64,000 bases of DNA from assembly GCA_964398815.1 (NCBI GenBank), contig CAYNNZ010000003.1, positions 6,676 to 70,675 of the forward strand, given 5' to 3'. A program made the position numbers and the translations under genes. This document shows, one piece after another, positions 43,495 to 64,000 of the stretch. This stretch comes from an uncultured Candidatus Saccharibacteria bacterium (lineage in GTDB: Bacteria; Patescibacteriota; Minisyncoccia; Phycocordibacterales; Phycocordibacteraceae). Under the pieces are notes generated by a model. The model was not told the DNA's origin. It ran no database searches and saw nothing but the letters and a program-made list of their open reading frames with translations. Position 1 is the first letter of the stretch; every line of letters begins with the position of its first letter.

Positions 43495-43516
43495 TCTTCA
43501 ACAGACGAATGAAAAG

Positions 43517-46133: not shown

Positions 46134-46134
46134 C

Positions 46135-46164
46135 CCTTCCACCCGGAAGGGTTCGTCATTTAGC
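46135..46164 (+). terminator. Possible terminator/attenuator hairpin between secA and obg
   Basis: CCCTTCC-ACCC-GGAAGGG followed by TTCGTCATTT. Confidence 0.35.
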
Positions 46165-46186
46165 GTCCTGTGATAGGGTGAGAGCA

Positions 46187-47161
46187 ATGGCACTCATAGA
46201 CCACGTAATCCTCCATGCAACCGCCGGCCGCGGTGGCGACGGCGTCGTTCGCTGGATGCATACCAAGGAGAAGGCGAAAGCTGGACCGGGCGGTGGCGAT
46301 GGCGGCCGCGGTGGCGATGTCGTACTCGTGGGAGTGCGCGACCTTGCTGCACTCGCCCAGTATCGATTCACAAAAAAGTTCCGCGCCGAGAAAGGAGGCA
46401 ACGGCGAGAACAACGAGCGGCACGGTGCCGATGGGGAAGACGTGATACTCAAGGTCCCGGTAGGGACTGTTGCGCGCGTGCCCCAGACGAACGAGTCCTA
46501 CGAGATTCTCTCCGAAGGACAGCGAGAGGTGGTATTCAAGGGAGGTGTGGGAGGGTTCGGTAATGCTCACTTCAAGAGCTCGGTGAACCAGAATCCATTC
46601 CAGTCTCGCGAGGGTAAGCCGGGTCAGGCTGGGGATATCGAAATAAGCCTCAAGCTCATCGCAGACGTGGGCTTCATCGGCTTCCCGAACGCAGGGAAGT
46701 CCTCTCTCCTGAACGAGCTCACGAACGCCCGTTCGAAGGTGGCGAACTATGCCTTCACCACTCTCGACCCTAACCTCGGGGACTTTTACGGGTACATCCT
46801 CGCTGACATTCCAGGACTCATAGAGGGAGCCTCGTCGGGCAAAGGCCTCGGTTCTCGCTTCCTCAAGCATATAGAACGCAACCGATTCCTTGTGCATCTC
46901 GTCTCGGCTGAACAAGAAGACCTAGTTTCAGCGTATAGGGCCATACGAAACGAGCTCACTACCTTTGGACGAGGTCTCGCCGAGAAGCGCGAGCTTGTGG
47001 TGCTCTCGAAGGTGGATGTCCTCGCAGAAGGGGAGCAGGAAAAGGCCCTCAAGGCCCTTTCGGAAGCCGCAGGTACAGACGTGATTCCGCTTTCCATACT
47101 TGATTCCGACCTCGTGAAGAAGCTCTCGGACCGGCTTACGGAAGAGTTGCGGAAGGAGTAG
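46187..47161 (+). CDS. obg: GTPase Obg (short form, no TGS domain)
   Basis: Gly-rich Obg fold (…GGRGGDVVL…AEKGGNGENNERHGADGEDVILKVPVGTV) and G-domain GFIGFPNAGKSSLLN…DIPGLIEGAS. Start at ATG 46187 inside ORF 46115-47161. Confidence 0.85.
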   Translation: MALIDHVILHATAGRGGDGVVRWMHTKEKAKAGPGGGDGGRGGDVVLVGVRDLAALAQYRFTKKFRAEKGGNGENNERHGADGEDVILKVPVGTVARVPQTNESYEILSEGQREVVFKGGVGGFGNAHFKSSVNQNPFQSREGKPGQAGDIEISLKLIADVGFIGFPNAGKSSLLNELTNARSKVANYAFTTLDPNLGDFYGYILADIPGLIEGASSGKGLGSRFLKHIERNRFLVHLVSAEQEDLVSAYRAIRNELTTFGRGLAEKRELVVLSKVDVLAEGEQEKALKALSEAAGTDVIPLSILDSDLVKKLSDRLTEELRKE

Positions 47162-47204
47162 GGCCGCTTGCGGCAATGGGGTGCCCCGGTGCAAGATGGG
47201 GGCA

Positions 47205-48596: not shown

Positions 48597-48679
48597 TATG
48601 CAGCTTAGTTACGCACCATTTTTTTGCCCACTGTTCACAACCTATTTAAAACGAGACAAGATAGCCTTATACTCTCTTT

Positions 48680-49570
48680 ATGGATGAGCTAACCCTAGAC
48701 AACAAGAAGTATCTCTCGTCGAAGCAAGCGGCTAAGGTAACCGGCTACGCGAAGGATTATGTGGGTCAGCTCTGTCGCGAAGGGCGCATCGATGCCCGCC
48801 TTGTGGGACGCAATTGGTATGTCCTCGAATCATCAATACTCGAGCATCGATTCGGGGCGGAAGATAAGAAAGATCAGGAAGTAAAGGCTGAAATTAAGCC
48901 GCAGACTGCGTGGGAGACGCCTCGCTACATCGCAGAGCCGGCACAGACCGTACCTGAACTTTCGCCTAAACCTGCTGAATTCACCTCCGCGCCGCCAACT
49001 TCTACAGCATCCGTGACCCCAGAGGTACGCTCTACGCTTACTGATATGCAGTCAGCGTGGCAGGAATGGTTCCAAACCCAAGGAAATAAGGAGGAAAAAG
49101 CGCTTCCCGATGCCAGCGAAATGCTCCTTGAGGACCATGAGGAGCCTTCCTTTACCCAAGATGACGTACTAGAAACGTCTGAGGTGGCTGACCATTTCGT
49201 AGAAACAGAGGTAGAAGAGGAAGCTGAACCCATACATATAGCCCGCATTCGCCCGGAACCGCCCGTGATGAGGCGAGAAGCCTCGTACACGATGGGAGAG
49301 CCGCTACGCCTACAACGACGCGAGGAGGACTATCAGGAGGTCATTGAAGAGCGTCCTCAAAGACGTTCGGCAAGGCAGATTGCTTCAGTCGAACGCCCGC
49401 AGAAACGGAATTTGATACTGAACGCACTCCTTATATCTGCTGCAGGACTGGCAATAGTAATAGCCACCCTAGGCTCAGGAGCAATCGACGCATGGGTAGG
49501 TAGCGGGGGATGGGCAAATCCAGTGACTAACTTCCTCACAGGCACTAACGTCGTAGATATCAACAGGTAG
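48680..49570 (+). CDS. Single-pass membrane protein with an N-terminal excisionase/MerR-like HTH (HTH_17-like), an acidic disordered linker and a C-terminal TM
   Basis: N-terminus SSKQAAKVTGYAKDYVGQLCREGRIDARLVGRNWYV; Glu/Asp/Pro-rich middle; TM LILNALLISAAGLAIVIATLG near the C-terminus. The N-terminal module recurs at the start of the giant gene downstream. Confidence 0.5.
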   Translation: MDELTLDNKKYLSSKQAAKVTGYAKDYVGQLCREGRIDARLVGRNWYVLESSILEHRFGAEDKKDQEVKAEIKPQTAWETPRYIAEPAQTVPELSPKPAEFTSAPPTSTASVTPEVRSTLTDMQSAWQEWFQTQGNKEEKALPDASEMLLEDHEEPSFTQDDVLETSEVADHFVETEVEEEAEPIHIARIRPEPPVMRREASYTMGEPLRLQRREEDYQEVIEERPQRRSARQIASVERPQKRNLILNALLISAAGLAIVIATLGSGAIDAWVGSGGWANPVTNFLTGTNVVDINR

Positions 49571-50182
49571 GCTCTATCTCATCTCGTAGAGACGAGATAG
49601 AATAAATACCAGAGGGAGAAGGTGATTTGAAAACCATACAAAAAAGGCGCTGCAAGAATCATGCGGGGCTCTTATAGCTTGGTAGGGCAGTACGCTCTAT
49701 AAGGCGTTATAAGGCCTCTGGTGGAGTTTGGGTGTAGGAACTAAGAATTGTGCGGCACGGATTTCTACTCAGAGTCGATCAACGAACTCATACGGTAATG
49801 AAAGTTACCGCGATGAGGACCCGAACGCTCTGAATAACCCTCAGTGTTACTCGCAACAGAGGAAATAAAGTTCGCACAATATTCTTTACTGCATGAATGT
49901 ACGCACTTCGTTGTAATTCCTCATTTCTGCACACAATAAGCTGATTGCGGCCGCAGATGACAGCCACAGTAGCCCTGTAAAGGTCTTATACGCCATCAAA
50001 ATCGCATTACTGTACGTTGAGATGGGCGTAAGTGAACGTAGATGTGTCGATGAGCGAACGCACGTGAGTTTCGCTCTCGCGGTAGCTCTTAGAAAGATGA
50101 ATTGCAGATGAAAGTTATACCCAGCGAAATGCTTCGAAGCATCCGATATCTCTACTAAAATATAGAGAAGTCGGAACTTTAC

Positions 50183-53100
50183 ATGCCTCCCTCGCTCGAT
50201 ACAAACTTCATCCCAAATAGGGAAGCATCGGAGACATCCGGATACCATCAGGACTATCTCGCGCGCCTCTGCCGCGAAGGAAAGGTCGAAGGAGTTCAGG
50301 TCGGTCGCGCGTGGCACATCAATCGCCACTCGCTTCTCAAGTTCATCCGCGAGCAGGAGGTGCGCAAGCACGAGTTGGCTGAGCAGCTCTCTCGCACACG
50401 CAAGCAAACACTTGCTCAGGCTGCGCCGGTATTCACGGCGCCACTGGTCACGGTCGAAGCGCCTGCTCCTGCAACTCCTGTCGTCCCGTCGCCCTACTCT
50501 CCTACGCCCTCAGGTATTTGGTTCTACCGGAGTGCTACAGGAGTGGCGGTTTTACTGCTTATTTTGACGAACCTGCATCCGATAAGCACTCAATTTGCAC
50601 TCGATGGGGCGCTCAATCGCGAAGCTGCTCGGCTCGGAGGAGCGTTCGGCTTCGGTCATGACCTCGCGCTTGTGCCTGCCACTTCGACCGCGCAGATGTC
50701 GCCCCGAACAATGGCGTACGGCAACACGTCGCAGGCAATCTACCAGCAGTTCTATGTAAACGGCGCTTCGACTGAATACGTAAATGCGTACGTTGCGGCC
50801 TACGTTTCTTCCGCACTGAAAGACATCGTAGCGAAGGTTGGCGCGCAGGTGCTTGATGGTCGCGGCGTATCGCATGCAACGTCCGGCTCAACTAATTCGG
50901 TTGCGGTTGATCTCACGAACATCAGTGGTTCGACGATTACGAACTCGACGTTCAGTGGTTCGGTAAACGCGACGACCGTGAATGTTGCAACGCTTACGGT
51001 ATCTGGCACTGCTACATTTGCAACGACTTCGACCTCGGGTCCGGCAACCTTCACCGGAACGACCACTATCTCTGGTCCGCTGGTCATAGGCGGATTGAAT
51101 GGAGTCACCGAATGTCTGCATGTTGATGCGAATGGCGTTGTGTCCGGAACCGGAATCGATTGTGGAAGTGGCGGCGGCGGACTCACCGGACTTAAGGGGC
51201 AGTACTCATCGCTTCAGACCGGAGCGATTCAGACGTTTGCCACCTCGAGCGACACGAACATCGGACTCACTATCACGTCGGCCGGCGACGTGCATACCTT
51301 CACGCCGACCTGGATAGGAACGCTCGGCGTCAATCGGGGCGGTACTGGTCTTGCAACGCCGCCGACGTATGGCCAGTTATTACTCGGGAATGGCGGAGGC
51401 GGGTATGCACTCGCCGCAACATCAACGCTCGGCATTTCGTCCTCGGATATCACCGAGGGCTCGAAACTTTTTTATACTGACGGTCGCGTCGCTACGTACC
51501 TCAACACCGTCGCGAAGGAATACTTCTTTGCAACCACATCTGCCGATTTCTGGCAGAGTCAGCGTGACCTCTTCTCTACCTCTAGTGCGGCCTATTTCCT
51601 AGCTCAAAACCAGGGTAACGCGTTCTCCTCCACCTCCGCGTCTTACTTCCTCACGCAGAACCAAGGTGCCGCATTCTCAACCACGTCAGCGAATCACTGG
51701 CTGACTACCAAGTCGACTTCGAACCTCGCAGAGGGTTCGAATCTCTACTTCACCGACGCACGCGTGCAAACGTACCTCGATACGATTTCAAAGGGATACT
51801 TCTACTCCACCACCTCGAGCGACCACTGGCTGACTACCAAAACGACCGACAATCTTGCGCAGGGCTCGACGAACAAGTACTACAACGACTCGCTCGTAAA
51901 TACATTTGTTGGTGCATCCAGCACCATTGCGAAAACATTTACCACGAACGTCTTCACCGCACTCAACTCGTTCACGGGTGGTCTCGCAATCGGTGCTCTC
52001 AACGGTCCGCTTCAGGTAAACAATGGCGTCGTGTCGGCAACGACATCGATCGGAGTTCTCTACGGGGGTACGGGCTCGACGACACTCACTGGACTCCTAA
52101 AGGGTAACGGTACGAGCCAGGTACTCACTGCAGTTGCAGGTACTGACTATCAGGCCCCTATTACGCTCACCACGACAGGTACTTCTGGTGCGGCTACCTT
52201 TATAGGTAATACACTCAACATCCCGCAGTACTCGGGTACGACCTACACGGGTACCTACCCGGTACAGGTATCGGGCTCCGTCATCTCGCTTGCGTTCGGC
52301 ACCTCAACGAGTAACACCTGGGGTGGCACGCAGACCTTCACGAATACTCCGGTACTCGGAACGCTTTCGGGTCTTGTCGGCGCGAACAACGGCGCGCTTT
52401 ATCAGGTCGCAACGACGACGCTCTACGGTACTGGGGCAGGCGGCCAGGTTCTCACCTGGAATAACGGGGCACCGCAGTGGGTCGCGACGACTACTTATTC
52501 CGCTGGTTCCGGCATCTCAACGTCGTTCGCAGCAGGGAACCTGACTATTTCAAACACTGGCGTCCTCGCCATTGGCCCTACTGGACAGACACAGACTGGA
52601 ACCGTCACCGTCGCTTCCTCGACTGCAGGTACTGACTTCACAGTCACTGCATCCGCTGGAACCATTACGTTCAACCTCCCGACTGCCTCCGCATCGAATC
52701 GCGGTCTGCTTTCCTCAACGGACTGGACCACCTTCACCAATAAGCAGGCAGCACTCACGTTTACGTATCCGCTCGTGAATTCAGCGAACACCGTCTCGCT
52801 CGCGTTCGGTACGACCACCACAAATGCGTGGTCGTCGCTCCAGACGTTTAATGGTGGATTCATTGCGCAAGGCTCGACCACGATTGCGGGTGATCTCACA
52901 GTCTCGGGCAATGCAACTACCACGAACGCAACGACGACGAACCTCTATGTCTCAACGTCGATACGCGGCGGCGGTCTAACCTCCTGTTCGTTCTCGAGCG
53001 ATAAGCTGCTCTACAACTCGACCACCGGACAGTTCTCCTGCGGTGCTGACGCAGGTGCCGGTGGCGGCATTACCGCACTTAAGGGGCAGTATTCAAGCGC

Positions 53101-56100
53101 GCAGACGGGAAGCACACAGACGTTTGCAACATCATCTGACACCAACCTCGGTCTCACCATCACGAGCGCAGGCGACACGCATACCTTCACGCCGGTATGG
53201 ATTGGTACGCTCGCGGTAAACAGGGGAGGTACGGGCCAGAGCTCATTTACTTCCGGACAGCTTATCTATGGAAACGGGACGAACGCACTCACGAGCGTCG
53301 GCACCACCAGCGAAACACTCTCAGCAGAATTTGCGTTTAGCGGCACGCTCGGAGCGCTCGTCGGCGGCACTTCCGGCACACTCTCACTCGCAACCAACGG
53401 CGTAGCGTACAGCAAGCTCGCACAGGCAGCAGCGAATACAATTCTGGGGAATCCGACTGGCGCAACCGGAAACATCGTTGCGTTCGCCACCTCCTCGCTT
53501 GGCATCGCGCTTGCTGATACGACTGGCACGCTCACGGTCGCGCGCGGTGGCACGGGCACCACTACCGCGCCGGCAGGACAAATCATCTATGGCGGTGGGG
53601 CAGGCGTGTATCAGTCAGCTGCGACCGGTACCGTTGCTGCAGGCAGTGGTGTAAGCGTCACGGCGGGGCAGTCGGTCATCGGCGCTGGTCTCACTATCAC
53701 GAACACTGGCGTCCTCGCAGTCGGTCCAGTGGGCCAGACGACTAGCGGAACCGCGCTTTTCGCTACCTCAACTGCAGGCACCGATTTCACCATCACTGGC
53801 GCGGGCTCGACCATCACCTTCAATCTGCCGACCGCGTCAGGATCTGCACGTGGCCTCCTCTCATCTTCCGACTGGACCACCTTCAACAACAAGCAGGCAG
53901 CACTCACGTTTACGTATCCGCTCGTAAACACCGGTAATACGGTCAGCATCGCCTTCGGCACTACCACCTCGAACACGTGGGCAGGTACGCAAACCTTTAC
54001 GAACGCACCAGTACTCAGCTCGCTCTCGGGAGTCATCTATGGAAATAACGGAACGCTCGCAACGGCAGCAACCTCATCAATTGCAGTCTCTGGCGCGTTC
54101 AATTACTCAGGCACGCTCGGTACGTTTGTCGGCGGTACTAATGGCACGCTCTCGCTCGCAACCAACGGTGTCGCACTCACGAATCTCGCACAGATTGCCG
54201 CGAACTCAGTACTCGTAAACAACACTAGTGCAACGGGTAACGTAACGACAATCGCAACGAGTACATTCTTCGGTCTGGGGAATGGCGGCCAGGTCCTCAC
54301 CTGGAATAACGGGGTGCCGCAGTGGGTAGCAACGACAACGTACGCTGCAGGTACGGGTATCTCTACCTCATTCGCTGCTGGTCAGCTCACCATCACCAAC
54401 ACTGGCATTACGTCGCTTCAGCAGACAGGAGGCGGCTCCGCACAGACGGGTGCCATCACGTTCGCCACTTCGTCAGTTACGAATAATGGCGTGACGATTG
54501 GTCTCAACGTCACGAACGTCGGCGGCGCATTCACTTTCACACCCACGCGTTCTGGTACGCTCACTGCAGCAGGAGGCGGCACCGGCTTCGCATCCTACAC
54601 ACCGGGTGACATCCTCTATGCAGACACGGCAACGACATTCGCTCGCGCAGCGTCTTCGACGGACGGCTTCGTACTCGCGCTCGCAAATGGCAAGCCAACC
54701 TGGGTCGCGACCACAACGCTCTCCACCATCAGCGGCACGCTCGGTGTCACTAAGGGCGGCACGGGCCTTACCTCCATCGCTTCCTCCTCGCTCCTTATCG
54801 GTGGACCGGGTAATACTTTCATCGGTTACGCGACCTCATCGCTCGGCATCGCGCTCTCTGACACGACCGGAACACTCACGATTGTTCGTGGCGGTACCGG
54901 CACTACCACTGCTCCAGTGGGCCAGCTTATCTACGGAGGGGCAACCTCATACCAGAGCGTTGCAACCGGCACAGTCGCTTCAGGCTCAGGCATAAGCGTC
55001 ACAGCAGGGCAGGCAATCATCGGCTCTGGCCTCACCATCACCAACACCGGCCTCCTCTCACTTCAGCAGCTTGGTGGCGGTTCTGCACAGACGGGTGCAG
55101 TCACGTTCGCAACGTCGTCGCAGACGACTAACGGCCAGACAATCGGTCTCAACATCACCAACACCGCAGGTGCCTTCACTTTCGCACCTACCATCGGCGG
55201 CACCCTCACGGTCGCCGGTGGGGGAACCGGCCAGACCTCCTTCACCGCAGGGCAAATTCTCTATGGAAACGGCACGAACGGTCTCACTTCAGTGGGTACC
55301 ACATCCGAGACTCTTTCGTCTGAATTCTCATACTCAGGTACTCTCGGCGCACTCGTTGGCGGCTCTTCCGGAACGCTCTCCCTTGCCACCAACGGCGTTG
55401 CGCTTAACAAACTGGTTCAGGTTGGAGCAAACACTATCCTGGGCAACAACACGGGCGCGACCGGAAACGTCGTCGCATTCGCAACCTCGACGCTCTTTGG
55501 TACCGGCACGAACGGATTTGTTCTCGCTGTCGTAAACGGTATTCCGACCTGGACCGCCACCTCGTCCATCAATAACGGTGTCTCGTCGATTCAGCAGACC
55601 GGTGGTGGCACCGCACAGACCGGTGCGATTACATTCGCAACATCATCTGTCACGAACAACGGCGTCACTATCGGCCTCAACATCACGAACACCGGTAGCG
55701 CATTCACGTTCGCTCCGACACGCTCGGGTACGCTCACGGTGGCAGGTGGCGGCACCGGAGTCGGTTCCTTCACTGCAGGCCAGCTCATCTATGGAAACGG
55801 AACGAATAACCTCACTTCAGTAGCGACCACCACCATTGCGGTCTCGGGTGCCTTCAACTACTCAGGAACGCTTGGAGCGCTTGTGGGAGGCACAGGGGGC
55901 ACTCTCTCGCTTGCCACCAACGGCGTTGCACTCACGAACATCGCGCAGATTGCAGCCAACTCGATTCTTGCGAACGGTACCGGCGCGACTGGAAACGTCA
56001 CCGCGCTCGCAACCTCCTCCCTCGGTATCGCTCTTAGTGACACCACCGGCACCCTCCTAGCCGCTCGTGGCGGCACCGGCTTCGCCTCATACACTCCAGG

Positions 56101-59100
56101 CGACATTCTCTACGCAGACACCGCCGCATCACTTGCACGCGTTGCATCCTCAACTGACGGATTCATCCTCGGTCTCGCAAACGGCAAGCCAACCTGGGTC
56201 GCCACTACCACGCTTTCCTCAATCACCGGCACGCTCGTAATCGCGAAGGGAGGTACCGGCACCACCACGGCACCTTCTGGCCAAATCCTCTATGGCGGTG
56301 GGGCAGGCGTGTATCAGTCAGCTGCGACCGGTACCGTTGCTGCAGGCAGTGGTGTAAGCGTCACGGCGGGGCAGTCGATTATCGGTTCCGGTCTCACCAT
56401 CACGAACACGGGCGTCACTTCGATTCAGCAATCATCCGGTTCCGCGCAGACCGGTGCCATCACGCTTGCGACCTCATCAGCGGTCTCGTTCAACGGACTT
56501 ACGTTCACCAACTCCATCACTAACTCTTCGGGAACCTTCACCTTCACCCCGGCACTTTCTGGCACCCTCACGGTTGCAGGAGGCGGCACGGGTGTCTCGT
56601 CCTTCACCGCAGGTCAGCTCGTATATGGAAATGGCACGAACAACCTGACTTCAGTCGCAACCAGCTCACAGACTCTTTCTGCAGAATTCTCTGATACCGG
56701 CACCTTCGGTGCACTCGTTGGCGGCACCTCTGGAACCCTCTCGCTTGCCACCAACGGCGTTGCATACAGCAAACTCGCTCAGGCAGCCGCAAACACCATC
56801 CTCGGCAATCCGACTGGCGCGACCGGAAACCTCCAGGCATTCGCAACCTCATCGCTTGGTATCGCGCTTGCTGACACTACTGGAACGCTCTCGGTCGCTC
56901 GTGGCGGCACCGGTTCCACCACGCTCTCCGGCATCCTCCGTGGCAACGGCACTGGCCAAGTCAGTACCCTCATCGTCGGCTCCGGCCTCACCTTCGATGG
57001 CACCACGCTCGCAACCAGCGGCTCCGGCATCACCTCCATCGGTGCAGCAGGGCAGCTCCAGTCAGGGGGTACTCAGACCTTCGCAACCTCAACCGGCTCA
57101 TTCAACGGCCTCACGCTCGGCATGACGGTGGTCTCCTCTGCAAACACCCACACCTTCACGCCTTCCATCACCGGCACCCTCGGTGTTGCGGGAGGTGGCA
57201 CGGGCGCAGCATCCTTTACCGCAGGAGCTCTCGTGTATGGTGCAGGCACGGGTGCACTTCAGACAGTCGGCACCTCAACCGAAACCCTCTCCTCTGAATT
57301 TGCATACTCGGGAACACTCGGCGCGCTCGTGGGTGGTTCTTCCGGAACACTCTCACTCGCAACCAATGGTGTCGCACTCAACAAGCTCGTACAGGTTGGT
57401 GCAAACACCATCCTTGGCAACAACACTGGTGCGACCGGAAACGTCGTGGCGTTTGCAACCTCAACACTCTTTGGTACGGGAGTGGGTGGGCAGGTGCTGA
57501 CGTGGAGCAATGGGGTGCCGCGTTTTGTCGCGACGACGACCTTCTCTGCACCGCTCGCGTTCGCAAACGGCAATGTAACCATTACGCAGGCAGGTACGGG
57601 AGCAGACGGATACCTCTCGTCTACCGACTTCGCAACATTCAATAATAAAGTTTCTTCCACCTCGCTCTCCGCAACCTATCCGCTCGCATACAACAGCGCG
57701 ACCGGAGTCTTCACGACCGCGTTCGGCACCACGACCAGCAACACATGGGCTGGCACGCAGACGTTCACGAATACCATCAAGGTCGGCAGTCTCACCGGGT
57801 TCATTGCGGGTAATGCAGGTACGCTCTACCAGATCGCAAGCTCGTCTCTGAATCTCCCCACAAGCGCGCTCGCGAGCCAGAACGTAAGCCAGTTCACGAA
57901 CGATGCTGGGTATCTCACGCCGACATGGACCACGACTATTGATGCGGCGAACAACACCCTGAACAACGTAAACATGCTGACGTTCTACAACGGCGCTACA
58001 CGGCTCCTTAACGTCACCGACGTCTACAACAAGCAAGGACTCCGTATCGCAGATGGGTTCAGTCCAACCAATCGCGCCGACCTCTTCCCGTACTACCGCG
58101 ATGGGGGAGCGGCATTCCAGGCGGGCGATATCCTCGTCGCAAGCTCAAGCGGCGCCTACTATGCAGCAGCTACCTCAACACTTGGCTTTGAATCGGCGCT
58201 GACTTTCTCCTCGCCGCTTACACGAACCGGGAACACGGTAGGTATTCAGGTCGCAAACGGTTCACAGAACGGCTATCTCTCCTCGAGCGACTGGACGACC
58301 TTCAGTAGCAAGCTCTCTGCCTATGACGCATGGAGTCATCCGAGCGCAGGAGTTTCGGCGACAACAAGCGGCCTCATAATCACCGCGTCTTCGACTATCG
58401 GTAACGGTAGTCCAGCGGGCGGACTCACCATTGCCGGAAACTCGACTACGACCGGCATCGCAATCGCATCAGCCTTCGCTGGAAATGGAACGAATAATTC
58501 GCTCCTTACCCAGAACGGCATCGAGGTAGCGGTCATAGATACCAGTGCCACTACTATTGCGCTCGGTCTCTATAACAACTCATCAAGCGGGGCGAACAGT
58601 TCAGCGGTCGGTCTCAATAACAATGCTTCAGGCGGGTCATACAATAGCGCGTTCGGATTCGGTAATACTTCGTCTGGGTATCTTTCGTCCGCATTCGGCT
58701 CGCAGAACGTTGCCTCGAACAATACCTCCGGAGCATTCGGAGCAAGTAACAACGTCTCCGGAGTACAGGCATACGCGTTCGGCTATGCGATCACAAACGC
58801 CATCGACAACACGGTGATGATTGGTCCAAGCGATGCAGCGAAGGTAACTATTCGCAACACTGGAAAGGTCGGTATCGGAACCACCACACCGACCGCACAG
58901 CTGGAAGTCGAGAACGACACCAATGCTCTCGCACTCCTGCTGACCGTCCGCAACAATTACGGAACGACCGGATCTGCCGGCTCCCGTATCGGATTCGGCG
59001 TACACCGCGACATAGACCCAACAGCACTCGGCGCATCCATCGATGCCATCAACAAGGCTGGAGTTAATAATGGCGATATCGCACAGGGAGCAGACCTTGT

Positions 59101-62100
59101 ATTCAACACGAGCCCTGACGCGACGCTCGGTCTAGCGGAGCGCCTACGCATTACAAATGTGGGGGATGTGGGCGTAGGCACAAACACTCCAAGTGCGCGC
59201 CTCTCTGTGCAGGGTAATGGTCTCTTCTCAGGCAATCTTGCTGCCGCAGGACTCACGGCTACTGGCACCGTCGCTTTCACGAATCTCTCCTCGGGCCTCG
59301 TAGGCTCAAACAACGGAACGCTCTACTCGCTTGCCACCTCGACCAGTTTCGTAACGAGCGTTGTTGCTGGAACCGGCATTAATGTCTCGGGTGCGACTGG
59401 CGCAGTCACTATTTCAAATAGCGGACTACTTTCACTCCAGCAGTTGGGTGGCGGTTCTGCTCAGACCGGAGCAATCACGTTTGCCACTTCGTCTGTCACG
59501 AACAACGGCGTCACCATCGGCCTCAACATCACCAATTCCGCTGGTGCCTTCACGTTCACCCCAACGCGCTCGGGTACGCTCACGGTTGCAGGAGGGGGCA
59601 CGGGTGCAGCGTCATTCACTGCCGGACAAATTCTCTATGGTAATGGCACCAATGCACTCTCCTCAGTTGGCACAACGACGGAAACCCTCTCCTCTGAATT
59701 TGCATACTCCGGAACCCTCGGTGCACTCGTGGGTGGTTCTTCTGGCACACTCTCACTTGCCACCAACGGCGTCGCACTCAACAAGCTCGTTCAGGTAGGA
59801 GCAAACACCATTCTGGGCAACAACACTGGTGCGACCGGAAACGTCGTGGCGTTTGCAACCTCAACACTCTTTGGTACGGGAGTGGGTGGGCAGGTGCTCG
59901 CTATCGTCAACGGGGTACCGAACTGGGTTGCCACCTCCTCAATCAACAATGGGGTATCAAGCATCCAGCAGCTTGGTGGTGGCTCTGCTCAGACTGGTGC
60001 CATCACCTTCGCTACTTCGTCTGTCACGAACAACGGCGTGACGATTGGTCTCAACATCACGAACTCGGGCGGTGCCTTCACCTTCACTCCAACGCGCTCG
60101 GGTACGCTCACGGTCGCCGGTGGCGGTACTGGATTCGCTTCCTACACGCCTGGCGACATCCTCTACGCCGACACCGCAACCTCATTCGCAAAGGTCTCTT
60201 CAACCACTGATGGGTTTGTCCTCGCGCTCGCAAATGGCAAACCGACCTGGGTCGCATCCACGACGCTCTCGACCATCACCGGTACGCTCGGTGTCACCAA
60301 GGGCGGTACAGGCCTTACTTCAATCGCATCGTCCTCGCTCCTCATCGGTGGACCAGGTAATACCTTCATCGGTTATGCGACCTCATCGCTCGGCATCGCG
60401 CTTACCGACACCACTGGTACGCTCTCAATTGCTCGTGGCGGCACCGGCACCACTACTGCACCAGCAGGCCAAATCCTCTACGGCGGTGGGGCAGGTGTGT
60501 ATCAATCGGTCGCAACCGGCACAGTCGCAGGCGGTACGAACATCAGTGTGACCGCAGGGCAGTCGGTCATTGGTTCTGGACTCACCATCGGTATCACGGG
60601 GCAGATAGGAGTGGGGAATGGAGGCACCGGTGTTGGCAGTTTCACTGCTGGACAGATTCTCTACGGTAATGGTACGAACGCACTCACGTCTGTCGCGACG
60701 ACTTCCATCGCTGTCTCCGGCGCATTCAACTATTCAGGAACGCTTGGGGCTCTCGTAGGCGGCACAGGCGGCACCCTCTCCCTCGCAACTAACGGTGTCG
60801 CACTCACCAACATCGCGCAGATTGCAGCCAACTCGATTCTCGCGAATGGTACTGGCGCAACCGGCAACGTCACTGCACTCGCAACCTCTTCTCTCGGCAT
60901 CGCACTCACTGACACCACGGGCACTCTTGCCGTAAACCGTGGCGGCACTGGATTCGCCTCGTACACGCCGGGTGACCTGCTCTACGCAAATTCCGGAACG
61001 ACCTTCGCCAAGGTTTCTTCTTCCACTGATGGCTTCGTGCTTGGCCTCGCAAATGGCAAGCCGACCTGGGTCGCAACCTCTACTCTCGCCACCATCAGCG
61101 GCTCCCTTAATCTCGGTTCACAAGTAACGGGCACCCTTGGCGTTACTAACGGCGGCACCGGTTCCACCACGCTCTCCGGCATCCTCCGTGGCAACGGCAC
61201 TGGCCAAGTCAGTACCCTCATCGTCGGCTCCGGCCTCACCTTCGATGGCACCACGCTCGCAACCAGCGGCTCCGGCATCACCTCCATCGGTGCAGCAGGG
61301 CAGCTCCAGTCAGGGGGTACTCAGACCTTCGCAACCTCAACTGGCTCATTCAATGGACTCACGCTCGGCATGACCATCGTATCGAACTCGAATACGCACA
61401 CGTTTACTCCATCCATCTCCGGCACGCTCGGGGTCGCGGGCGGAGGAACCGGGGTAGGTACCTTCACTGGTGGTCAGCTTATTTATGGAAATGGCACAAA
61501 CGCTCTCACGTCTGTCGCAACCTCATCTCTCGCAGTCTCAGGCGCCTTCTCGTACTCAGGCACGCTCGGCGCTCTCGTTGGAGGAGCAGGTGGCACCCTC
61601 TCACTCGCCACCAACGGTGTTGCGCTCACGAACCTCGCTCAGATTGCAGCAAACACCATCCTCGCGAATCCGACGGGTGCAACTGGTAACGTGCAGGCAG
61701 TTGCAACCTCAACCCTCTACGGCACTGGGGCAGGCGGACAGGTGCTCACCTGGAATAACGGCGCACCGCAGTGGGTCGCAACCACCACATACTCGGGAGG
61801 AAGTGGTATCAGCACATCGTTTGCAGCAGGGAACCTGACCATCACGAACACTGGTCTCCTCTCACTCCAGCAGTTGGGTGGCGGTTCTGCACAGACCGGT
61901 GCAATCACGTTCGCAACGTCGTCGCAGACCACGAACGGTCAGACGATTGGGCTTAATATCACGAACACTGGCGGTGCCTTCACCTTCAGTCCAACCATCT
62001 CTGGTGTGCAGACCGTCGCAGGCGGCGGCACCGGCGTTGGTTCCTTCACCGCCGGACAGCTCATATACGGAAACGGAACGAACAATCTGACTTCAGTCGG

Positions 62101-64000
62101 CACCACGACGGAGACCCTCTCCTCTGAGTTCTCATACTCTGGCACCCTCGGTGCACTGGTCGGTGGTTCTTCCGGCACACTCTCACTCGCAACCAACGGT
62201 GTCGCACTCAACAAGCTCGTACAGGTCGGAGCAAACACCATTCTGGGCAACAACACGGGTGCAACTGGAAACGTGGTTGCCTTCGCAACTTCAACACTCT
62301 TCGGTACCGGCACTGGAGGACAGGTCCTCGCTATCTCAAACGGTGTTCCGACTTGGATTGCATCCACCACCTACGCAAACGGCTCAGGCATCTCGACCTC
62401 GTTCGCGGCAGGACAGCTCACGATTACAAACACTGGTGTCACTGCAGTAGGTCCGACCGGTCAATCAATTACTGGAGGTGTGGTGGTCGCATCCTCCACC
62501 TCAACGACTAACGGCATCACGTCGGCAATCACGGTTGTTGGCTCTGGCCAAAATCTGACCTTCACACCTTCGCAGTCCGGCACGCTCACAGTCGGAGGTG
62601 GGGGAACGGGACAGACGTCGCTTGCTTCAGGTCAGCTTATCTATGGTGCAGGCACCGCGGGTGTTCAGTCAGTTGCAACCTCATCTCTCGCAGTCTCAGG
62701 CGCCTTCTCGTACTCAGGCACGCTCGGTGCACTCGTCGGAGGAGCTGGCGGCACCCTCTCGCTTGCCACCAACGGTGTTGCGCTCACCAACATCGCGCAG
62801 ATTGCGGCGAACTCAGTCCTCGTGAACAACACCTCTGCTACGGGCAACGTGACTGCAATCGCCACCTCCACCTTCTTCGGAGTCGGCACCGGCGGTCAGG
62901 TACTCGCTATCGTCAACGGCGTACCGAACTGGGTTGCTACCTCCTCAATCAACAATGGGGTATCAAGCATCCAGCAGCTTGGTGGTGGCTCTGCTCAGAC
63001 GGGTGCCATCACGTTTGCCACTTCGTCCGCAACTCTGAACGGCCAAACTCATGGCCTCAACATCACGAACTCTGGCGCAGCCTTCACCTTCACACCGACG
63101 CTCTCCGGCACGCTTACGGTCGGAGGTGGCGGTACTGGATTCGCTTCATACACCCCAGGCGACATTCTTTACGCCGACACCGCAACCTCATTCGCAAAGG
63201 TCTCCTCAACGACCGACGGTTTCGTACTCGCTCTCGCAAATGGCAAACCAACCTGGGTCGCTTCCACGACACTCTCGACCATCACCGGCACGCTCGGCGT
63301 AACGAAGGGTGGTACGGGTCTCACTTCAATCGCATCTTCCTCACTCCTTATTGGTGGACCAGGCAACACGATCATCGGCTACGCGACCTCATCGCTCGGC
63401 ATCGCCCTTACCGACACCACTGGGACACTCGGTGCAACTCGCGGAGGCACCGGTCTTACGACCATTGCATCCTCCTCCATCCTCATTGGAGGAGCAGGGA
63501 ACACATGGCTCCAGTACGCAACGTCCTCCCTCGGTATTAATCTCTCTGACACGGTCGGAACACTCACGGTTGGTCGTGGCGGCACCGGCGTCGGTTCCTT
63601 CACCGCCGGCCAGCTCATCTATGGCAACGGCACCAACAACCTGACATCGGTCAGTACTTCATCTCTCGCCGTCTCTGGCGCCTTCTCGTACTCAGGCACC
63701 CTTGGCGCTCTCGTCGGAGGTTCTGGTGGCACCCTCTCCCTCGCCACCAACGGTGTTGCGCTCACGAATATCGCGCAAATCGCAGCGAATTCGGTACTTG
63801 TGAACAACACCAGCGGTACGGGCAACGTGACCGCAATCGCTACCTCCACATTCTTCGGCGCAGGAACCGGTGGCCAGGTGCTCACCTGGAACAACGGCGT
63901 ACCGCAATGGGTCGCAACCACCACCTACGCAAACGGCTCCGGCATCTCGACCGCGTTTGCTGCAGGGCAGTTGACCATCACCAACACCGGCCTCCTCTCA
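50183..64000 (+). CDS. 5' part (at least 4,606 codons, no stop in the window) of a giant repetitive Gly/Thr/Ser-rich surface protein gene: HTH-like N-terminus, one TM, modular repeats, central tail-fibre/YadA-head-like region
   Basis: Manual translation from ATG 50183 (in-frame TAA at 50156-50158 upstream) to base 64000 is open throughout. It is not in the ORF track because it lacks a stop inside the window. Recurrent modules include GTLTVAGGGTG..SFTAGQLIYGNGTN.LTSV, GTLGALVGGSSGTLSLATNGVALNKLVQVGANTILGNNTGATGNVVAFATS, GQVLTWNNG.PQWVATTTY and FASYTPGDILYADTAT…GKPTWVA. Confidence 0.8.
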   Translation, partial: MPPSLDTNFIPNREASETSGYHQDYLARLCREGKVEGVQVGRAWHINRHSLLKFIREQEVRKHELAEQLSRTRKQTLAQAAPVFTAPLVTVEAPAPATPVVPSPYSPTPSGIWFYRSATGVAVLLLILTNLHPISTQFALDGALNREAARLGGAFGFGHDLALVPATSTAQMSPRTMAYGNTSQAIYQQFYVNGASTEYVNAYVAAYVSSALKDIVAKVGAQVLDGRGVSHATSGSTNSVAVDLTNISGSTITNSTFSGSVNATTVNVATLTVSGTATFATTSTSGPATFTGTTTISGPLVIGGLNGVTECLHVDANGVVSGTGIDCGSGGGGLTGLKGQYSSLQTGAIQTFATSSDTNIGLTITSAGDVHTFTPTWIGTLGVNRGGTGLATPPTYGQLLLGNGGGGYALAATSTLGISSSDITEGSKLFYTDGRVATYLNTVAKEYFFATTSADFWQSQRDLFSTSSAAYFLAQNQGNAFSSTSASYFLTQNQGAAFSTTSANHWLTTKSTSNLAEGSNLYFTDARVQTYLDTISKGYFYSTTSSDHWLTTKTTDNLAQGSTNKYYNDSLVNTFVGASSTIAKTFTTNVFTALNSFTGGLAIGALNGPLQVNNGVVSATTSIGVLYGGTGSTTLTGLLKGNGTSQVLTAVAGTDYQAPITLTTTGTSGAATFIGNTLNIPQYSGTTYTGTYPVQVSGSVISLAFGTSTSNTWGGTQTFTNTPVLGTLSGLVGANNGALYQVATTTLYGTGAGGQVLTWNNGAPQWVATTTYSAGSGISTSFAAGNLTISNTGVLAIGPTGQTQTGTVTVASSTAGTDFTVTASAGTITFNLPTASASNRGLLSSTDWTTFTNKQAALTFTYPLVNSANTVSLAFGTTTTNAWSSLQTFNGGFIAQGSTTIAGDLTVSGNATTTNATTTNLYVSTSIRGGGLTSCSFSSDKLLYNSTTGQFSCGADAGAGGGITALKGQYSSAQTGSTQTFATSSDTNLGLTITSAGDTHTFTPVWIGTLAVNRGGTGQSSFTSGQLIYGNGTNALTSVGTTSETLSAEFAFSGTLGALVGGTSGTLSLATNGVAYSKLAQAAANTILGNPTGATGNIVAFATSSLGIALADTTGTLTVARGGTGTTTAPAGQIIYGGGAGVYQSAATGTVAAGSGVSVTAGQSVIGAGLTITNTGVLAVGPVGQTTSGTALFATSTAGTDFTITGAGSTITFNLPTASGSARGLLSSSDWTTFNNKQAALTFTYPLVNTGNTVSIAFGTTTSNTWAGTQTFTNAPVLSSLSGVIYGNNGTLATAATSSIAVSGAFNYSGTLGTFVGGTNGTLSLATNGVALTNLAQIAANSVLVNNTSATGNVTTIATSTFFGLGNGGQVLTWNNGVPQWVATTTYAAGTGISTSFAAGQLTITNTGITSLQQTGGGSAQTGAITFATSSVTNNGVTIGLNVTNVGGAFTFTPTRSGTLTAAGGGTGFASYTPGDILYADTATTFARAASSTDGFVLALANGKPTWVATTTLSTISGTLGVTKGGTGLTSIASSSLLIGGPGNTFIGYATSSLGIALSDTTGTLTIVRGGTGTTTAPVGQLIYGGATSYQSVATGTVASGSGISVTAGQAIIGSGLTITNTGLLSLQQLGGGSAQTGAVTFATSSQTTNGQTIGLNITNTAGAFTFAPTIGGTLTVAGGGTGQTSFTAGQILYGNGTNGLTSVGTTSETLSSEFSYSGTLGALVGGSSGTLSLATNGVALNKLVQVGANTILGNNTGATGNVVAFATSTLFGTGTNGFVLAVVNGIPTWTATSSINNGVSSIQQTGGGTAQTGAITFATSSVTNNGVTIGLNITNTGSAFTFAPTRSGTLTVAGGGTGVGSFTAGQLIYGNGTNNLTSVATTTIAVSGAFNYSGTLGALVGGTGGTLSLATNGVALTNIAQIAANSILANGTGATGNVTALATSSLGIALSDTTGTLLAARGGTGFASYTPGDILYADTAASLARVASSTDGFILGLANGKPTWVATTTLSSITGTLVIAKGGTGTTTAPSGQILYGGGAGVYQSAATGTVAAGSGVSVTAGQSIIGSGLTITNTGVTSIQQSSGSAQTGAITLATSSAVSFNGLTFTNSITNSSGTFTFTPALSGTLTVAGGGTGVSSFTAGQLVYGNGTNNLTSVATSSQTLSAEFSDTGTFGALVGGTSGTLSLATNGVAYSKLAQAAANTILGNPTGATGNLQAFATSSLGIALADTTGTLSVARGGTGSTTLSGILRGNGTGQVSTLIVGSGLTFDGTTLATSGSGITSIGAAGQLQSGGTQTFATSTGSFNGLTLGMTVVSSANTHTFTPSITGTLGVAGGGTGAASFTAGALVYGAGTGALQTVGTSTETLSSEFAYSGTLGALVGGSSGTLSLATNGVALNKLVQVGANTILGNNTGATGNVVAFATSTLFGTGVGGQVLTWSNGVPRFVATTTFSAPLAFANGNVTITQAGTGADGYLSSTDFATFNNKVSSTSLSATYPLAYNSATGVFTTAFGTTTSNTWAGTQTFTNTIKVGSLTGFIAGNAGTLYQIASSSLNLPTSALASQNVSQFTNDAGYLTPTWTTTIDAANNTLNNVNMLTFYNGATRLLNVTDVYNKQGLRIADGFSPTNRADLFPYYRDGGAAFQAGDILVASSSGAYYAAATSTLGFESALTFSSPLTRTGNTVGIQVANGSQNGYLSSSDWTTFSSKLSAYDAWSHPSAGVSATTSGLIITASSTIGNGSPAGGLTIAGNSTTTGIAIASAFAGNGTNNSLLTQNGIEVAVIDTSATTIALGLYNNSSSGANSSAVGLNNNASGGSYNSAFGFGNTSSGYLSSAFGSQNVASNNTSGAFGASNNVSGVQAYAFGYAITNAIDNTVMIGPSDAAKVTIRNTGKVGIGTTTPTAQLEVENDTNALALLLTVRNNYGTTGSAGSRIGFGVHRDIDPTALGASIDAINKAGVNNGDIAQGADLVFNTSPDATLGLAERLRITNVGDVGVGTNTPSARLSVQGNGLFSGNLAAAGLTATGTVAFTNLSSGLVGSNNGTLYSLATSTSFVTSVVAGTGINVSGATGAVTISNSGLLSLQQLGGGSAQTGAITFATSSVTNNGVTIGLNITNSAGAFTFTPTRSGTLTVAGGGTGAASFTAGQILYGNGTNALSSVGTTTETLSSEFAYSGTLGALVGGSSGTLSLATNGVALNKLVQVGANTILGNNTGATGNVVAFATSTLFGTGVGGQVLAIVNGVPNWVATSSINNGVSSIQQLGGGSAQTGAITFATSSVTNNGVTIGLNITNSGGAFTFTPTRSGTLTVAGGGTGFASYTPGDILYADTATSFAKVSSTTDGFVLALANGKPTWVASTTLSTITGTLGVTKGGTGLTSIASSSLLIGGPGNTFIGYATSSLGIALTDTTGTLSIARGGTGTTTAPAGQILYGGGAGVYQSVATGTVAGGTNISVTAGQSVIGSGLTIGITGQIGVGNGGTGVGSFTAGQILYGNGTNALTSVATTSIAVSGAFNYSGTLGALVGGTGGTLSLATNGVALTNIAQIAANSILANGTGATGNVTALATSSLGIALTDTTGTLAVNRGGTGFASYTPGDLLYANSGTTFAKVSSSTDGFVLGLANGKPTWVATSTLATISGSLNLGSQVTGTLGVTNGGTGSTTLSGILRGNGTGQVSTLIVGSGLTFDGTTLATSGSGITSIGAAGQLQSGGTQTFATSTGSFNGLTLGMTIVSNSNTHTFTPSISGTLGVAGGGTGVGTFTGGQLIYGNGTNALTSVATSSLAVSGAFSYSGTLGALVGGAGGTLSLATNGVALTNLAQIAANTILANPTGATGNVQAVATSTLYGTGAGGQVLTWNNGAPQWVATTTYSGGSGISTSFAAGNLTITNTGLLSLQQLGGGSAQTGAITFATSSQTTNGQTIGLNITNTGGAFTFSPTISGVQTVAGGGTGVGSFTAGQLIYGNGTNNLTSVGTTTETLSSEFSYSGTLGALVGGSSGTLSLATNGVALNKLVQVGANTILGNNTGATGNVVAFATSTLFGTGTGGQVLAISNGVPTWIASTTYANGSGISTSFAAGQLTITNTGVTAVGPTGQSITGGVVVASSTSTTNGITSAITVVGSGQNLTFTPSQSGTLTVGGGGTGQTSLASGQLIYGAGTAGVQSVATSSLAVSGAFSYSGTLGALVGGAGGTLSLATNGVALTNIAQIAANSVLVNNTSATGNVTAIATSTFFGVGTGGQVLAIVNGVPNWVATSSINNGVSSIQQLGGGSAQTGAITFATSSATLNGQTHGLNITNSGAAFTFTPTLSGTLTVGGGGTGFASYTPGDILYADTATSFAKVSSTTDGFVLALANGKPTWVASTTLSTITGTLGVTKGGTGLTSIASSSLLIGGPGNTIIGYATSSLGIALTDTTGTLGATRGGTGLTTIASSSILIGGAGNTWLQYATSSLGINLSDTVGTLTVGRGGTGVGSFTAGQLIYGNGTNNLTSVSTSSLAVSGAFSYSGTLGALVGGSGGTLSLATNGVALTNIAQIAANSVLVNNTSGTGNVTAIATSTFFGAGTGGQVLTWNNGVPQWVATTTYANGSGISTAFAAGQLTITNTGLLS
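53586..53674 (+). repeat. 89-nt perfect repeat (copy 2 at 56289-56377)
   Basis: tctatggcggtggggcaggcgtgtatcagtcagctgcgaccggtaccgttgctgcaggcagtggtgtaagcgtcacggcggggcagtcg is identical in both copies. Confidence 0.8.
56903..57093 (+). repeat. 191-nt perfect intragenic direct repeat, copy 1 (copy 2 at 61151-61341)
   Basis: Base-for-base identical stretch ggcggcaccggttccaccacgctctccggc…ttcgcaacctcaac at offset 4,248 nt; it encodes an identical about 63-aa module (GGTGSTTLSGILRGNGTGQVSTLIVGSGLTFDGTTLATSGSGITSIGAAGQLQSGGTQTFATST). Confidence 0.85.
57416..57498 (+). repeat. 83-nt perfect repeat (copy 2 at 59816-59898) embedded in about 220 nt of about 90% identity
   Basis: ggcaacaacactggtgcgaccggaaacgtcgtggcgtttgcaacctcaacactctttggtacgggagtgggtgggcaggtgct is identical at an offset of exactly 2,400 nt. 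Confidence 0.85.
61151..61341 (+). repeat. 191-nt perfect intragenic direct repeat, copy 2
   Basis: See copy 1 (56903-57093). Confidence 0.85.

What the first reader, a model, noticed from the sequence alone, without database searches (positions are those of the whole stretch)
53586..61341. Multiple long perfect intragenic DNA repeats (83-191 nt) inside the giant gene
Three base-perfect repeat pairs are visible by eye: 56903-57093 = 61151-61341 (191 nt, offset 4,248), 57416-57498 = 59816-59898 (83 nt, offset exactly 2,400, inside about 220 nt of about 90% identity), and 53586-53674 = 56289-56377 (89 nt).

Synonymous-site identity this high, within otherwise diverged protein repeats, indicates recent intragenic duplication or gene conversion. 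Such tracts are substrates for RecA-dependent expansion and contraction, a phase or antigenic-variation-like mechanism for surface fibres. They are also classic sources of short-read misassembly, so the repeat count here may be wrong.
Basis: seen in the sequence. Interest (0 to 1): 0.55.

Follow-up and report, generated by a model that had tools for sequence, protein, structure and literature searches.

The report
Gene-conversion tracts in giant fibre gene
A giant repetitive surface-fibre gene of a small uncultured (candidate-phyla-type) bacterium carries a few stretches of 35-191 bases that are letter-perfect copies of each other, best explained as recent copy-and-paste recombination between old, diverged repeat modules; this is real but an ordinary behaviour of repetitive surface-protein genes.

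Summary
The three perfect pairs (191, 89 and 83 nt) lie exactly where stated and cannot be extended. Two more exist, of 62 and 53 nt.

All 99 exact direct repeats of at least 16 nt lie in one open reading frame (ATG 50183, running off the window end, at least 4,606 aa). All 99 offsets are multiples of 3.

The protein has an N-terminal HTH-like domain and one membrane helix. A dispersed mosaic of about eight module types follows, and a central unique domain resembles adhesin heads and Bdellovibrio/phage fibres.

The modules are old. The median is 69% nt identity and dS about 1.45, close to synonymous saturation. One 60-aa stretch is protein-identical in four copies yet has dS up to 1.38.

Against that background, 6 of 94 paralogous segment pairs show clustered identity (permutation p <= 0.0005). 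Each tract abuts a homology boundary on one side and fades on the other. No kb-scale identity exists. Short-tract gene conversion fits best.

An independent k141 contig confirms the 89-nt pair. The 191- and 83-nt pairs could not be cross-checked.

All ten public short-read contigs break or turn chimeric inside the gene, so the misassembly warning is justified. Copy-number or antigenic variation is not shown.

Verdict: a new member of a known kind, of modest interest.

The parts
50183..64000 (+). Giant ORF, at least 4,606 codons, running off the window end. It encodes a membrane-anchored repetitive fibre protein.
   Evidence: A stop-free frame runs from 50159 to 64000. The gene start at 50183 agrees with the gene calls on public contigs.
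50210..50344 (+). N-terminal excisionase-type HTH-like domain of the giant protein.
   Evidence: Pfam HTH_17 matches weakly, E 0.0055, below the curated cut-off. It is homologous to the N-terminus of neighbour 48680-49570 (E 3e-11). The same N-terminus occurs in distant giants P0083, P0089 and P0095.
50516..50575 (+). Single hydrophobic helix (IWFYRSATGVAVLLLILTNL), a presumed membrane anchor.
   Evidence: Read from the translation. This is an inference; no predictor was run.
53225..64000 (+). Mosaic of about 8 in-frame module types, most of them starting with the peptide GGTG. They include 11 gap-free copies of a 93-aa 'ab' module.
   Evidence: Searches give the module map. One search gives the repeat families at 60-80% nt identity.
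56903..57093 (+). P1a: 191-nt perfect tract. It starts at the first base of the GGTG codons of module I.
61151..61341 (+). P1b: partner of P1a, offset 4,248 nt (1,416 codons).
57416..57498 (+). P2a: 83-nt perfect tract at the 3' end of an ab-c2 module. It lies about 40 nt before the central unique domain begins.
59816..59898 (+). P2b: partner of P2a, offset 2,400 nt (800 codons).
53586..53674 (+). P3a: 89-nt perfect tract in module H.
   Evidence: Present in the independent contig L001.
56289..56377 (+). P3b: partner of P3a, offset 2,703 nt.
   Evidence: Present in the independent contig L001.
59933..59994 (+). P4a: 62-nt perfect tract. Its partner is 62939-63000, inside a roughly 900-nt block of about 87% identity (59552-60457 vs 62558-63463).
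61517..61569 (+). P5a: 53-nt perfect tract. Its partner is 62675-62727.
52742..52776 (+). 35-nt perfect tract. Its partner is 53891-53925. Five Logan contigs end here.
57542..59410 (+). Central non-repetitive domain. Residues at 58451-58783 resemble an adhesin head. Residues at 58826-59323 resemble the Bdellovibrio MAT fibre beta-helix and phage tail fibres.
   Evidence: 9gh4 at E 2.4e-8, CbpF (9u93) at 4.7e-8, Bd2133 (8ond) at 0.0047. PHROG tail fibre at 5e-10.

Best explanation
The gene encodes a giant, membrane-anchored and probably trimeric surface fibre of a Patescibacteria/CPR-type bacterium. It is built from old, in-frame paralogous modules whose protein sequence is held by purifying selection while synonymous sites have drifted almost to saturation.

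The perfect 35-191-nt tracts are footprints of recent short-tract, non-reciprocal homologous recombination (gene conversion) between dispersed copies of the same module type. Each conversion copied a patch from one module into another. The patch ran up to the edge of homology on one side and ended inside the module on the other.

Shown here: the tracts, their in-frame geometry, the saturated background, the statistical clustering, and the absence of kb-scale identity.

Inferred: the recombination mechanism (RecA-type strand invasion), the trimeric fibre or adhesin role, and the taxon.
For: - Tracts are exact and maximal. All 99 repeats of at least 16 nt are in frame.
- Background for the 11 'ab' copies: median 69% nt identity, 73% aa identity, dS 1.45, dN 0.2. 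54% of same-aa codons differ, against 59.5% expected at full randomisation.
- Four copies share 60 (nearly) identical residues with dS of 0.37-1.38.
- 6 of 94 paralogous segment pairs have identity runs never reached in 2,000 shuffles.
- The histogram of 20-codon windows sits near the random-codon null, with a tail up to 1.0 (32 windows at or above 0.7, against 4 in the null). That fits events of different ages.
- Identity profiles: P1 jumps from about 30% to 100% exactly at 56903, then falls to 90% and then 70%. P2 rises from 60% to 90% to 100% and stops at the homology edge near 57535. P3 behaves likewise.
- Mismatches in the 85-90% flanks are mostly at third codon positions, with no base bias.
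- P3 is reproduced in an independent k141 assembly.
- Relatives show the same behaviour: 59-nt perfect tracts in L011 and L017, and perfect 987-nt-period repeats up to 1,968 nt in L024.
- Fibre nature: PF13884 or YadA domains in homologues, and the Bdellovibrio MAT fibre paper PMC10769870.
Against: - P1 and P2 could not be checked against reads or a second assembly.
- A patch-wise duplication or replacement cannot be formally separated from conversion using one sequence.
- No donor/acceptor polarity was established.
- No RecA gene or recombination machinery was seen in the window.
- The structure prediction of a module block failed (pLDDT 41), so the fibre fold of the repeat modules is inferred only from the central domain and from homologues.
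Confidence: 0.7

Rival explanations
1. Assembly or polishing artefact. The 191-nt (and perhaps the 83-nt) identity was created when an assembler or consensus polisher homogenised two similar modules. Alternatively, the 4,248-nt unit between the P1 copies has the wrong copy number.
For: All 10 public short-read contigs end or become chimeric inside this gene. 191 nt exceeds the usual k of 127-141. Neither P1 nor P2 could be cross-checked: the exact look-up of 10 predicted fragments failed and no near-identical proteins were returned.
Against: P3 (89 nt) and the 35-nt pair are reproduced independently. L001 covers both P3 copies at 100% identity, and five Logan contigs stop 30 nt into the 35-nt repeat.

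A single two-copy repeat longer than k, with distinct flanks, allows only one linear path. There is no kb-scale perfect duplication of the kind an erroneous re-traversal would give.

Relatives from other assemblies show the same kind of tract.
Confidence: 0.1
2. Recent partial module duplication or insertion rather than conversion. For example, the first two-thirds of module I was newly inserted at a second site, and the A-c2 flank was duplicated when the central domain was inserted by a single crossover.
For: Module I occurs only twice in the repeat region. P1 begins exactly at a module junction. The P1 and P2 pairs are nested around the unique central domain, as Campbell-type integration into an A-c2 module would leave them.
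Against: On the other side, each tract grades into homologous sequence of 90% and then 70% identity, rather than into non-homology. The downstream 'ab' modules next to P1a and P1b are only 65% identical. A patch was therefore replaced inside pre-existing homologous modules.
Confidence: 0.13
3. A selected variation system. The in-frame dispersed repeats exist to generate fibre-length or head-domain variants by recombination, as shown for H. pylori cagY, giving antigenic or host-range variation.
For: All 99 repeats are in frame, as in cagY (PMC2194252). Crossovers at P1 or P2 would delete or duplicate 1,416 or 800 aa, including the only head-like domain, and still leave a grammatical protein. 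Relative L024 shows recent tandem amplification.
Against: In-frame offsets follow automatically from protein-level repeats. Repeat density is 7.2 per kb, against 43-52 per kb in cagY. Most of the gene is near synonymous saturation, which makes it a poor recombination substrate. Every assembly that reaches into the gene is identical up to 56701. The GGTG junction is not conserved at the DNA level (22 different 12-mers in 30 sites).
Confidence: 0.05
4. The perfect tracts are conserved by selection on the nucleotide sequence itself, as an embedded RNA or DNA element.
For: None specific. This is only the formal possibility that identity at synonymous sites is functional.
Against: The tracts lie in different module types and share no sequence with one another. 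Other copies of the same modules differ freely at synonymous sites. Rfam found nothing in the gene.
Confidence: 0.02

Closest known systems
Helicobacter pylori cagY intragenic direct repeats (Aras et al. 2003, PMC2194252)
   Same: Many direct DNA repeats lie inside one large surface-exposed protein gene. Every possible recombination event stays in frame.
   Different: cagY has 43-52 repeats of at least 16 nt per kb, and in-host size variants have been demonstrated. Here there are 7.2 per kb on a near-saturated background, and no variant was observed. The protein family and the organism are unrelated.
Concerted evolution or intragenic homogenisation of repeat modules in giant repetitive genes (e.g. 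spider spidroins, PMC3933166 and PMC3563967; bacterial repeat adhesins, from general knowledge)
   Same: Repeat units within one gene exchange sequence non-reciprocally. This gives tracts identical at synonymous sites.
   Different: In those cases most or all units are homogenised and tandem. Here homogenisation is rare and patchy, and the modules are dispersed in a shuffled order rather than in tandem (TRF found none).
Bdellovibrio mosaic adhesive trimer (MAT) fibres and phage tail fibres (Caulton et al. 2024, PMC10769870)
   Same: Residues 429-594 of the central domain align to the Bd2133 beta-helix region (8ond, E 0.0047). A PHROG tail-fibre family also matches. Homologues carry the S74 chaperone domain. 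The domain use is mosaic.
   Different: This protein is 4-5 times longer. It is anchored by an N-terminal HTH-like domain plus a membrane helix. The head-like domain sits in the middle rather than at the tip. Its GGTG modules have no Pfam model.
Trimeric autotransporter adhesins (YadA family)
   Same: A YadA-like head-repeat region in the central domain matches 9gh4 and CbpF (9u93) at E of about 1e-8.
   Different: No YadA anchor or stalk domain is seen in the 4,606 aa available. The organism type lacks an outer membrane (general knowledge of CPR bacteria), and the anchor is N-terminal.

Membership tests
Intragenic gene conversion among paralogous coding repeats | Tracts of identity significantly longer than the divergence of the surrounding homologous alignment allows (GENECONV-type criterion). 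| tested here: met
   6 of 94 segment pairs have p <= 0.0005 (0 of 2,000 shuffles), with runs of 63, 29, 27, 20, 17 and 11 identical codons.
Intragenic gene conversion among paralogous coding repeats | Identity extends to synonymous sites, while other copies of the same module are diverged at those sites. | tested here: met
   Median dS is 1.45. Copies that are protein-identical over 60 aa have dS up to 1.38.
Intragenic gene conversion among paralogous coding repeats | The exchange is non-reciprocal and short-tract, not a large duplication. | tested here: inconclusive
   No kb-scale identity exists, and tracts end inside homologous sequence. Donor/acceptor polarity and reciprocity cannot be read from a single sequence.
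cagY-type recombinational size or antigenic variation | All direct repeats are in frame, so rearrangements keep the ORF open. | tested here: met
   99 of 99 repeats are in frame.
cagY-type recombinational size or antigenic variation | Size variants of the gene are observed between or within populations. | tested here: not met
   Ten contigs from several samples are 100% identical to the window wherever they overlap, up to 56701. No contig was available for the 3' part, so this test covers only the first 6.5 kb of the gene.
Simple-sequence contingency locus (phase variation) | A tandem short-unit repeat tract in or upstream of the gene. | tested here: not met
   TRF found no tandem array in 49500-64000.
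Diversity-generating retroelement target | A template/variable repeat pair differing at adenines, with a nearby reverse transcriptase. | tested here: not met
   The pairs are perfect, and the mismatch spectrum of the near-perfect flanks shows no adenine bias. No RT appeared among the ORFs scanned. ORFs between 24 and 36 kb were not scanned.
Trimeric autotransporter adhesin (YadA family) | A C-terminal YadA membrane anchor (PF03895). | tested here: inconclusive
   It is absent from the 4,606 aa in the window, but the C-terminus lies beyond the window.
MAT / tail-fibre-like trimeric fibres | An intertwined trimeric beta-helix with a C-terminal S74 chaperone or another tip domain. | tested here: inconclusive
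   The sequence match to the Bd2133 beta-helix is weak (E 0.0047), and a PHROG tail-fibre family matches at 5e-10. S74 is present in homologues. The C-terminus was not seen, and the AF2 model is unusable.

The most novel reading that the evidence does not exclude
The two longest perfect pairs (191 and 83 nt) are nested direct repeats bracketing the only non-repetitive, head-like domain of the fibre. They could act as an in-frame excision/duplication switch. RecA-mediated crossover at P2 would remove exactly 800 aa (the head domain), and crossover at P1 would remove 1,416 aa. An episymbiotic CPR bacterium would thereby gain a population-level way to vary the fibre's length and binding head, and periodic gene conversion would keep the flanking tracts perfect.
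Probability: 0.08. Interest if true: 0.6.

Novelty: new member of a known kind. Interest (0 to 1): 0.3.

Why it matters
The finding shows that this giant, Pfam-dark fibre gene family of candidate-phyla bacteria evolves by occasional patch-wise recombination between very old modules. It also shows that such genes are systematically broken in short-read metagenome assemblies, so their length and repeat number in public MAGs should not be trusted without long reads.

If the recombination also produces length or head-domain variants, it would bear on how episymbionts attach to hosts. Nothing here demonstrates that.

Tried and rejected
- **Whole-protein homologue search:** the search with all 4,607 aa timed out.
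- **Second copy of the same organism's P1/P2 region:**
  - The genome-contig scan and the metagenome-contig scan returned only relatives at 70% identity or less.
  - Two homologous-protein searches returned no near-identical protein. Every hit was 1,141 aa or shorter, which suggests long representatives are not shown.
  - An exact look-up of 10 protein fragments, predicted from where k=31 contigs should break, found nothing.
- **GGTG junction as a DNA recombination signal:** rejected. There are 22 different 12-mers in 30 sites, consistent with ordinary codon usage.
- **Selection for deliberate synonymous scrambling, to suppress recombination:** rejected. The observed codon difference (0.52-0.54) does not exceed the random expectation of 0.595.
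- **DGR-type mutagenesis:** rejected, as there is no adenine bias.
- **Simple tandem repeats:** none found.
- **AF2 model of a 342-aa super-module:** run with a 7-row alignment of window paralogues, it gave pLDDT 41 and pTM 0.20. It is unusable, so no fold search was run.
- **Promoter/terminator scan upstream of the gene:** nothing found.
- **Pfam, NCBIfam and PHROGs on the repeat modules:** no family matched.
Full report
**Observation**

- 56903-57093 = 61151-61341 (191 nt)
- 57416-57498 = 59816-59898 (83 nt)
- 53586-53674 = 56289-56377 (89 nt)

The roughly 90%-identical 220-240-nt envelope around the 83-nt pair is also real, with 214 of 240 positions matching.

A full k-mer census adds pairs of 62 nt (59933/62939), 53 nt (61517/62675) and two of 35 nt. 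All 48 exact pairs of at least 20 nt, and all 99 of at least 16 nt, fall inside one ORF. Every offset is a multiple of three. The remaining 50 kb of the window contains a single 18-nt pair.

**What the gene is**

A stop-free frame runs from 50159 to the window end. The ATG at 50183 matches the gene start called on public contigs. At least 4,606 codons are visible.

The surroundings are chromosomal housekeeping genes and a large polysaccharide-synthesis cluster: SecDF, Mur ligases, MurB, SecA, Obg and GatB, with a 16S rRNA at 6856-8314. The closest relatives of the giant protein come from Parcubacteria, Kaiserbacteria and Saccharibacteria MAGs. A candidate-phyla (Patescibacteria) bacterium is therefore the likely host. 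This is an inference.

The protein has the following layout.
- It begins with an excisionase-type HTH-like segment. The Pfam HTH_17 match is weak, but the segment is homologous to the N-terminus of the neighbouring gene (E 3e-11).
- One hydrophobic helix follows.
- Next comes a Thr/Gly/Ala/Ser-rich mosaic of about eight module types, most of them starting with the peptide GGTG.
- The modules are dispersed in shuffled order, not tandem. TRF finds nothing.
- A single non-repetitive domain lies at 57542-59410. It matches adhesin heads (9gh4 at E 2.4e-8; F. nucleatum CbpF at 4.7e-8). It also matches the beta-helix of the Bdellovibrio MAT fibre Bd2133 (8ond, E 0.0047) and a PHROG tail-fibre family (5e-10).

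An exhaustive phmmer search with one 342-aa super-module found 823 representative proteins at E < 1e-3. Many are 3,000-5,500 aa long. The three read in full have the same HTH-plus-helix N-terminus. Homologues often carry the S74 tail-fibre chaperone domain. None of the repeat modules has a Pfam, NCBIfam or PHROG model.

**Background divergence**

Eleven copies of a 93-aa 'ab' module align without gaps. Their pairwise medians are as follows.

| Measure | Median |
|---|---|
| Nucleotide identity | 69% |
| Amino-acid identity | 73% |
| dS | 1.45 |
| dN | 0.2 |

Among codons encoding the same residue, 52-54% differ. Fully randomised synonymous codons would give 59.5%.

The clearest illustration is a 60-residue stretch that is identical, or differs at one residue, in four copies, yet has dS from 0.37 to 1.38. 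The modules are therefore old duplicates kept by purifying selection on the protein. DNA identity is not expected from constraint alone.

**The perfect tracts are outliers**

I collected 94 in-frame paralogous segment pairs and shuffled the identical and non-identical codon states within each. Six pairs have runs never reached in 2,000 shuffles: 63 codons (P1), 29 (P3), 27 (P2), 20, 17 and 11.

A histogram of 20-codon windows sits just above the random-codon null (mean 0.48 against 0.405). It has an excess tail: 32 windows at or above 0.7, against 4 in the null. That is what a low rate of homogenising events of different ages would give.

**Shape of the tracts**

- P1 begins at the very first base of the GGTG codons, where homology on that diagonal starts. 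Identity jumps from about 30% to 100%. After 191 nt it passes into about 90% and then 65-75% identity, all within homologous sequence.
- P2 rises from about 60% through about 90% to 100%. It stops about 40 nt before homology ends at the edge of the central domain.
- P3 behaves like P2.

The 'ab' modules that follow P1a and P1b are only 65% identical, and there is no kb-scale identity anywhere. A recent large duplication by unequal crossing-over is therefore excluded. Patches were overwritten inside pre-existing modules. This is the signature of short-tract gene conversion limited by homology boundaries.

Mismatches in the 85-90% flanks are mostly third-position and show no base bias, so nothing resembles DGR mutagenesis. 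The GGTG junction is not conserved at the DNA level, with 22 different 12-mers in 30 sites, so it is a protein motif and not a recombination site.

**Assembly question**

Ten public contigs carrying the upstream neighbour are 100% identical to the window. They come from ENA k141 assemblies, JGI and Logan, across several samples. Every one ends inside the giant gene, or in one case turns chimeric.

| Contigs | Where they end (window coordinates) |
|---|---|
| Five Logan contigs | 52771, exactly 30 nt into the 35-nt repeat, as expected for k=31 |
| One JGI contig (L006) | 52375 |
| One JGI contig (L004) | 54130 |
| One ENA k141 contig (L007) | 54681 |
| One ENA k141 contig (L001) | 56701 |
| One JGI contig (L002) | Joins unrelated sequence after 55911 |

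Contig L001 spans both copies of P3 and reproduces them, so that tract is independently confirmed.

P1 and P2 could not be cross-checked. Only P1 exceeds the usual k-mer sizes. A single two-copy repeat with four distinct flanks has only one linear traversal, so module order is not in question. What remains open is the copy number of the 4,248-nt unit. P1 and the 62-nt pair are interleaved, which would be ambiguous only for k < 62.

**Relatives**

A Saccharibacteria-labelled MAG (L011) carries an ORF of at least 3,918 aa with the same N-terminus. That gene and a groundwater contig (L017) have perfect tracts up to 59 nt.

A contig that looks long-read-derived (L024) carries homologous genes with 987-nt-period repeats that are perfect over up to 1,968 nt. 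Repeat turnover is thus a property of the family, and the window's gene is a comparatively quiet member.

**Function and variation**

A crossover at P2 would delete or duplicate exactly 800 aa, including the whole central domain. A crossover at P1 would do the same for 1,416 aa. Both products remain in frame and obey the module grammar.

This resembles H. pylori cagY, where all repeat-mediated rearrangements are in frame and size variants arise within hosts (PMC2194252). The differences are these.
- In-frame offsets follow automatically from protein-level repeats.
- Repeat density is 7.2 per kb, against 43-52 per kb in cagY.
- Most of the gene is too diverged to recombine readily.
- No variant was seen in the 6.5 kb of the gene covered by other assemblies.

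Variation is therefore possible but undemonstrated.

**Verdict**

The inference of recent gene conversion is well supported, and I prefer conversion to duplication. The antigenic-variation reading is unsupported, and the assembly caveat is valid but narrow. This is a new example of a known phenomenon, intragenic concerted evolution in a repetitive surface-protein gene, in an uncharacterised giant fibre family. Interest is modest.

Noticed in passing
window 50210-50575; 48680-49570; L011 8480-9000: The giant extracellular fibre protein starts with an excisionase-type HTH-like domain followed by one membrane helix. The same N-terminus heads the 296-aa neighbour gene (30% identity, E 3e-11). It also heads distant giant homologues (P0083, P0089, P0095 and the L011 ORF). 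A DNA-binding-type fold as the cytoplasmic head of a giant surface fibre is odd and unexplained.
   Followed up: partly
window 55325-55504, 57299-57478, 59699-59878, 62129-62308: A 60-residue stretch is identical, or differs at one residue, in four module copies, while synonymous divergence between them is dS 0.37-1.38. This implies very strong protein-level constraint (omega near 0) on a repeat module of a surface fibre.
   Followed up: yes
window 56903-61341: The 191-nt and 83-nt perfect pairs are nested direct repeats around the only non-repetitive domain (57542-59410). A crossover at the 83-nt pair would excise exactly 800 codons, including that domain.
   Followed up: partly
L024 1-17703 (ERZ25039476 contig_51360): A relative's homologous gene run carries 987-nt-period repeats that are perfect over up to 1,968 nt. 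It also shares perfect tracts of 300-590 nt between neighbouring ORFs. The gene appears split into several ORFs, which may reflect long-read frameshift errors.
   Followed up: partly
window 54681 and 56701 (ends of k141 contigs L007 and L001): Two MEGAHIT k141 contigs end at positions with no repeat of at least 141 nt anywhere in the window. Either long repeats with the unseen 3' part of the gene (the source contig is probably 78.7 kb) or population heterogeneity could be responsible.
   Followed up: no
L002 15346-15560 (JGI 3300045313 Ga0489987_000501): This public contig is identical to the window up to 55911. It then continues with 215 nt that match nothing in the window and creates a false stop 10 nt later. 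It is a chimeric join inside the repeat region.
   Followed up: yes
window 6856-8314 and 8943-9015: A complete 16S rRNA gene has no adjacent 23S. A tRNA follows about 630 nt downstream. An unlinked rRNA arrangement is typical of small-genome uncultured bacteria.
   Followed up: no
window 43381-43494: A 37-codon lysine-rich ORF (MAAKKKAAKKSTKRKSAKK...) with an internal 18-nt repeat is followed by a hairpin and T-run, just upstream of secA. It may encode a small basic protein.
   Followed up: no
window 40567-56701 versus L001-L010: Contigs from at least four sequencing projects (ENA, JGI and several Logan runs) are 100% identical to the window over 5-18 kb. The organism seems clonal across these samples.
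   Followed up: no
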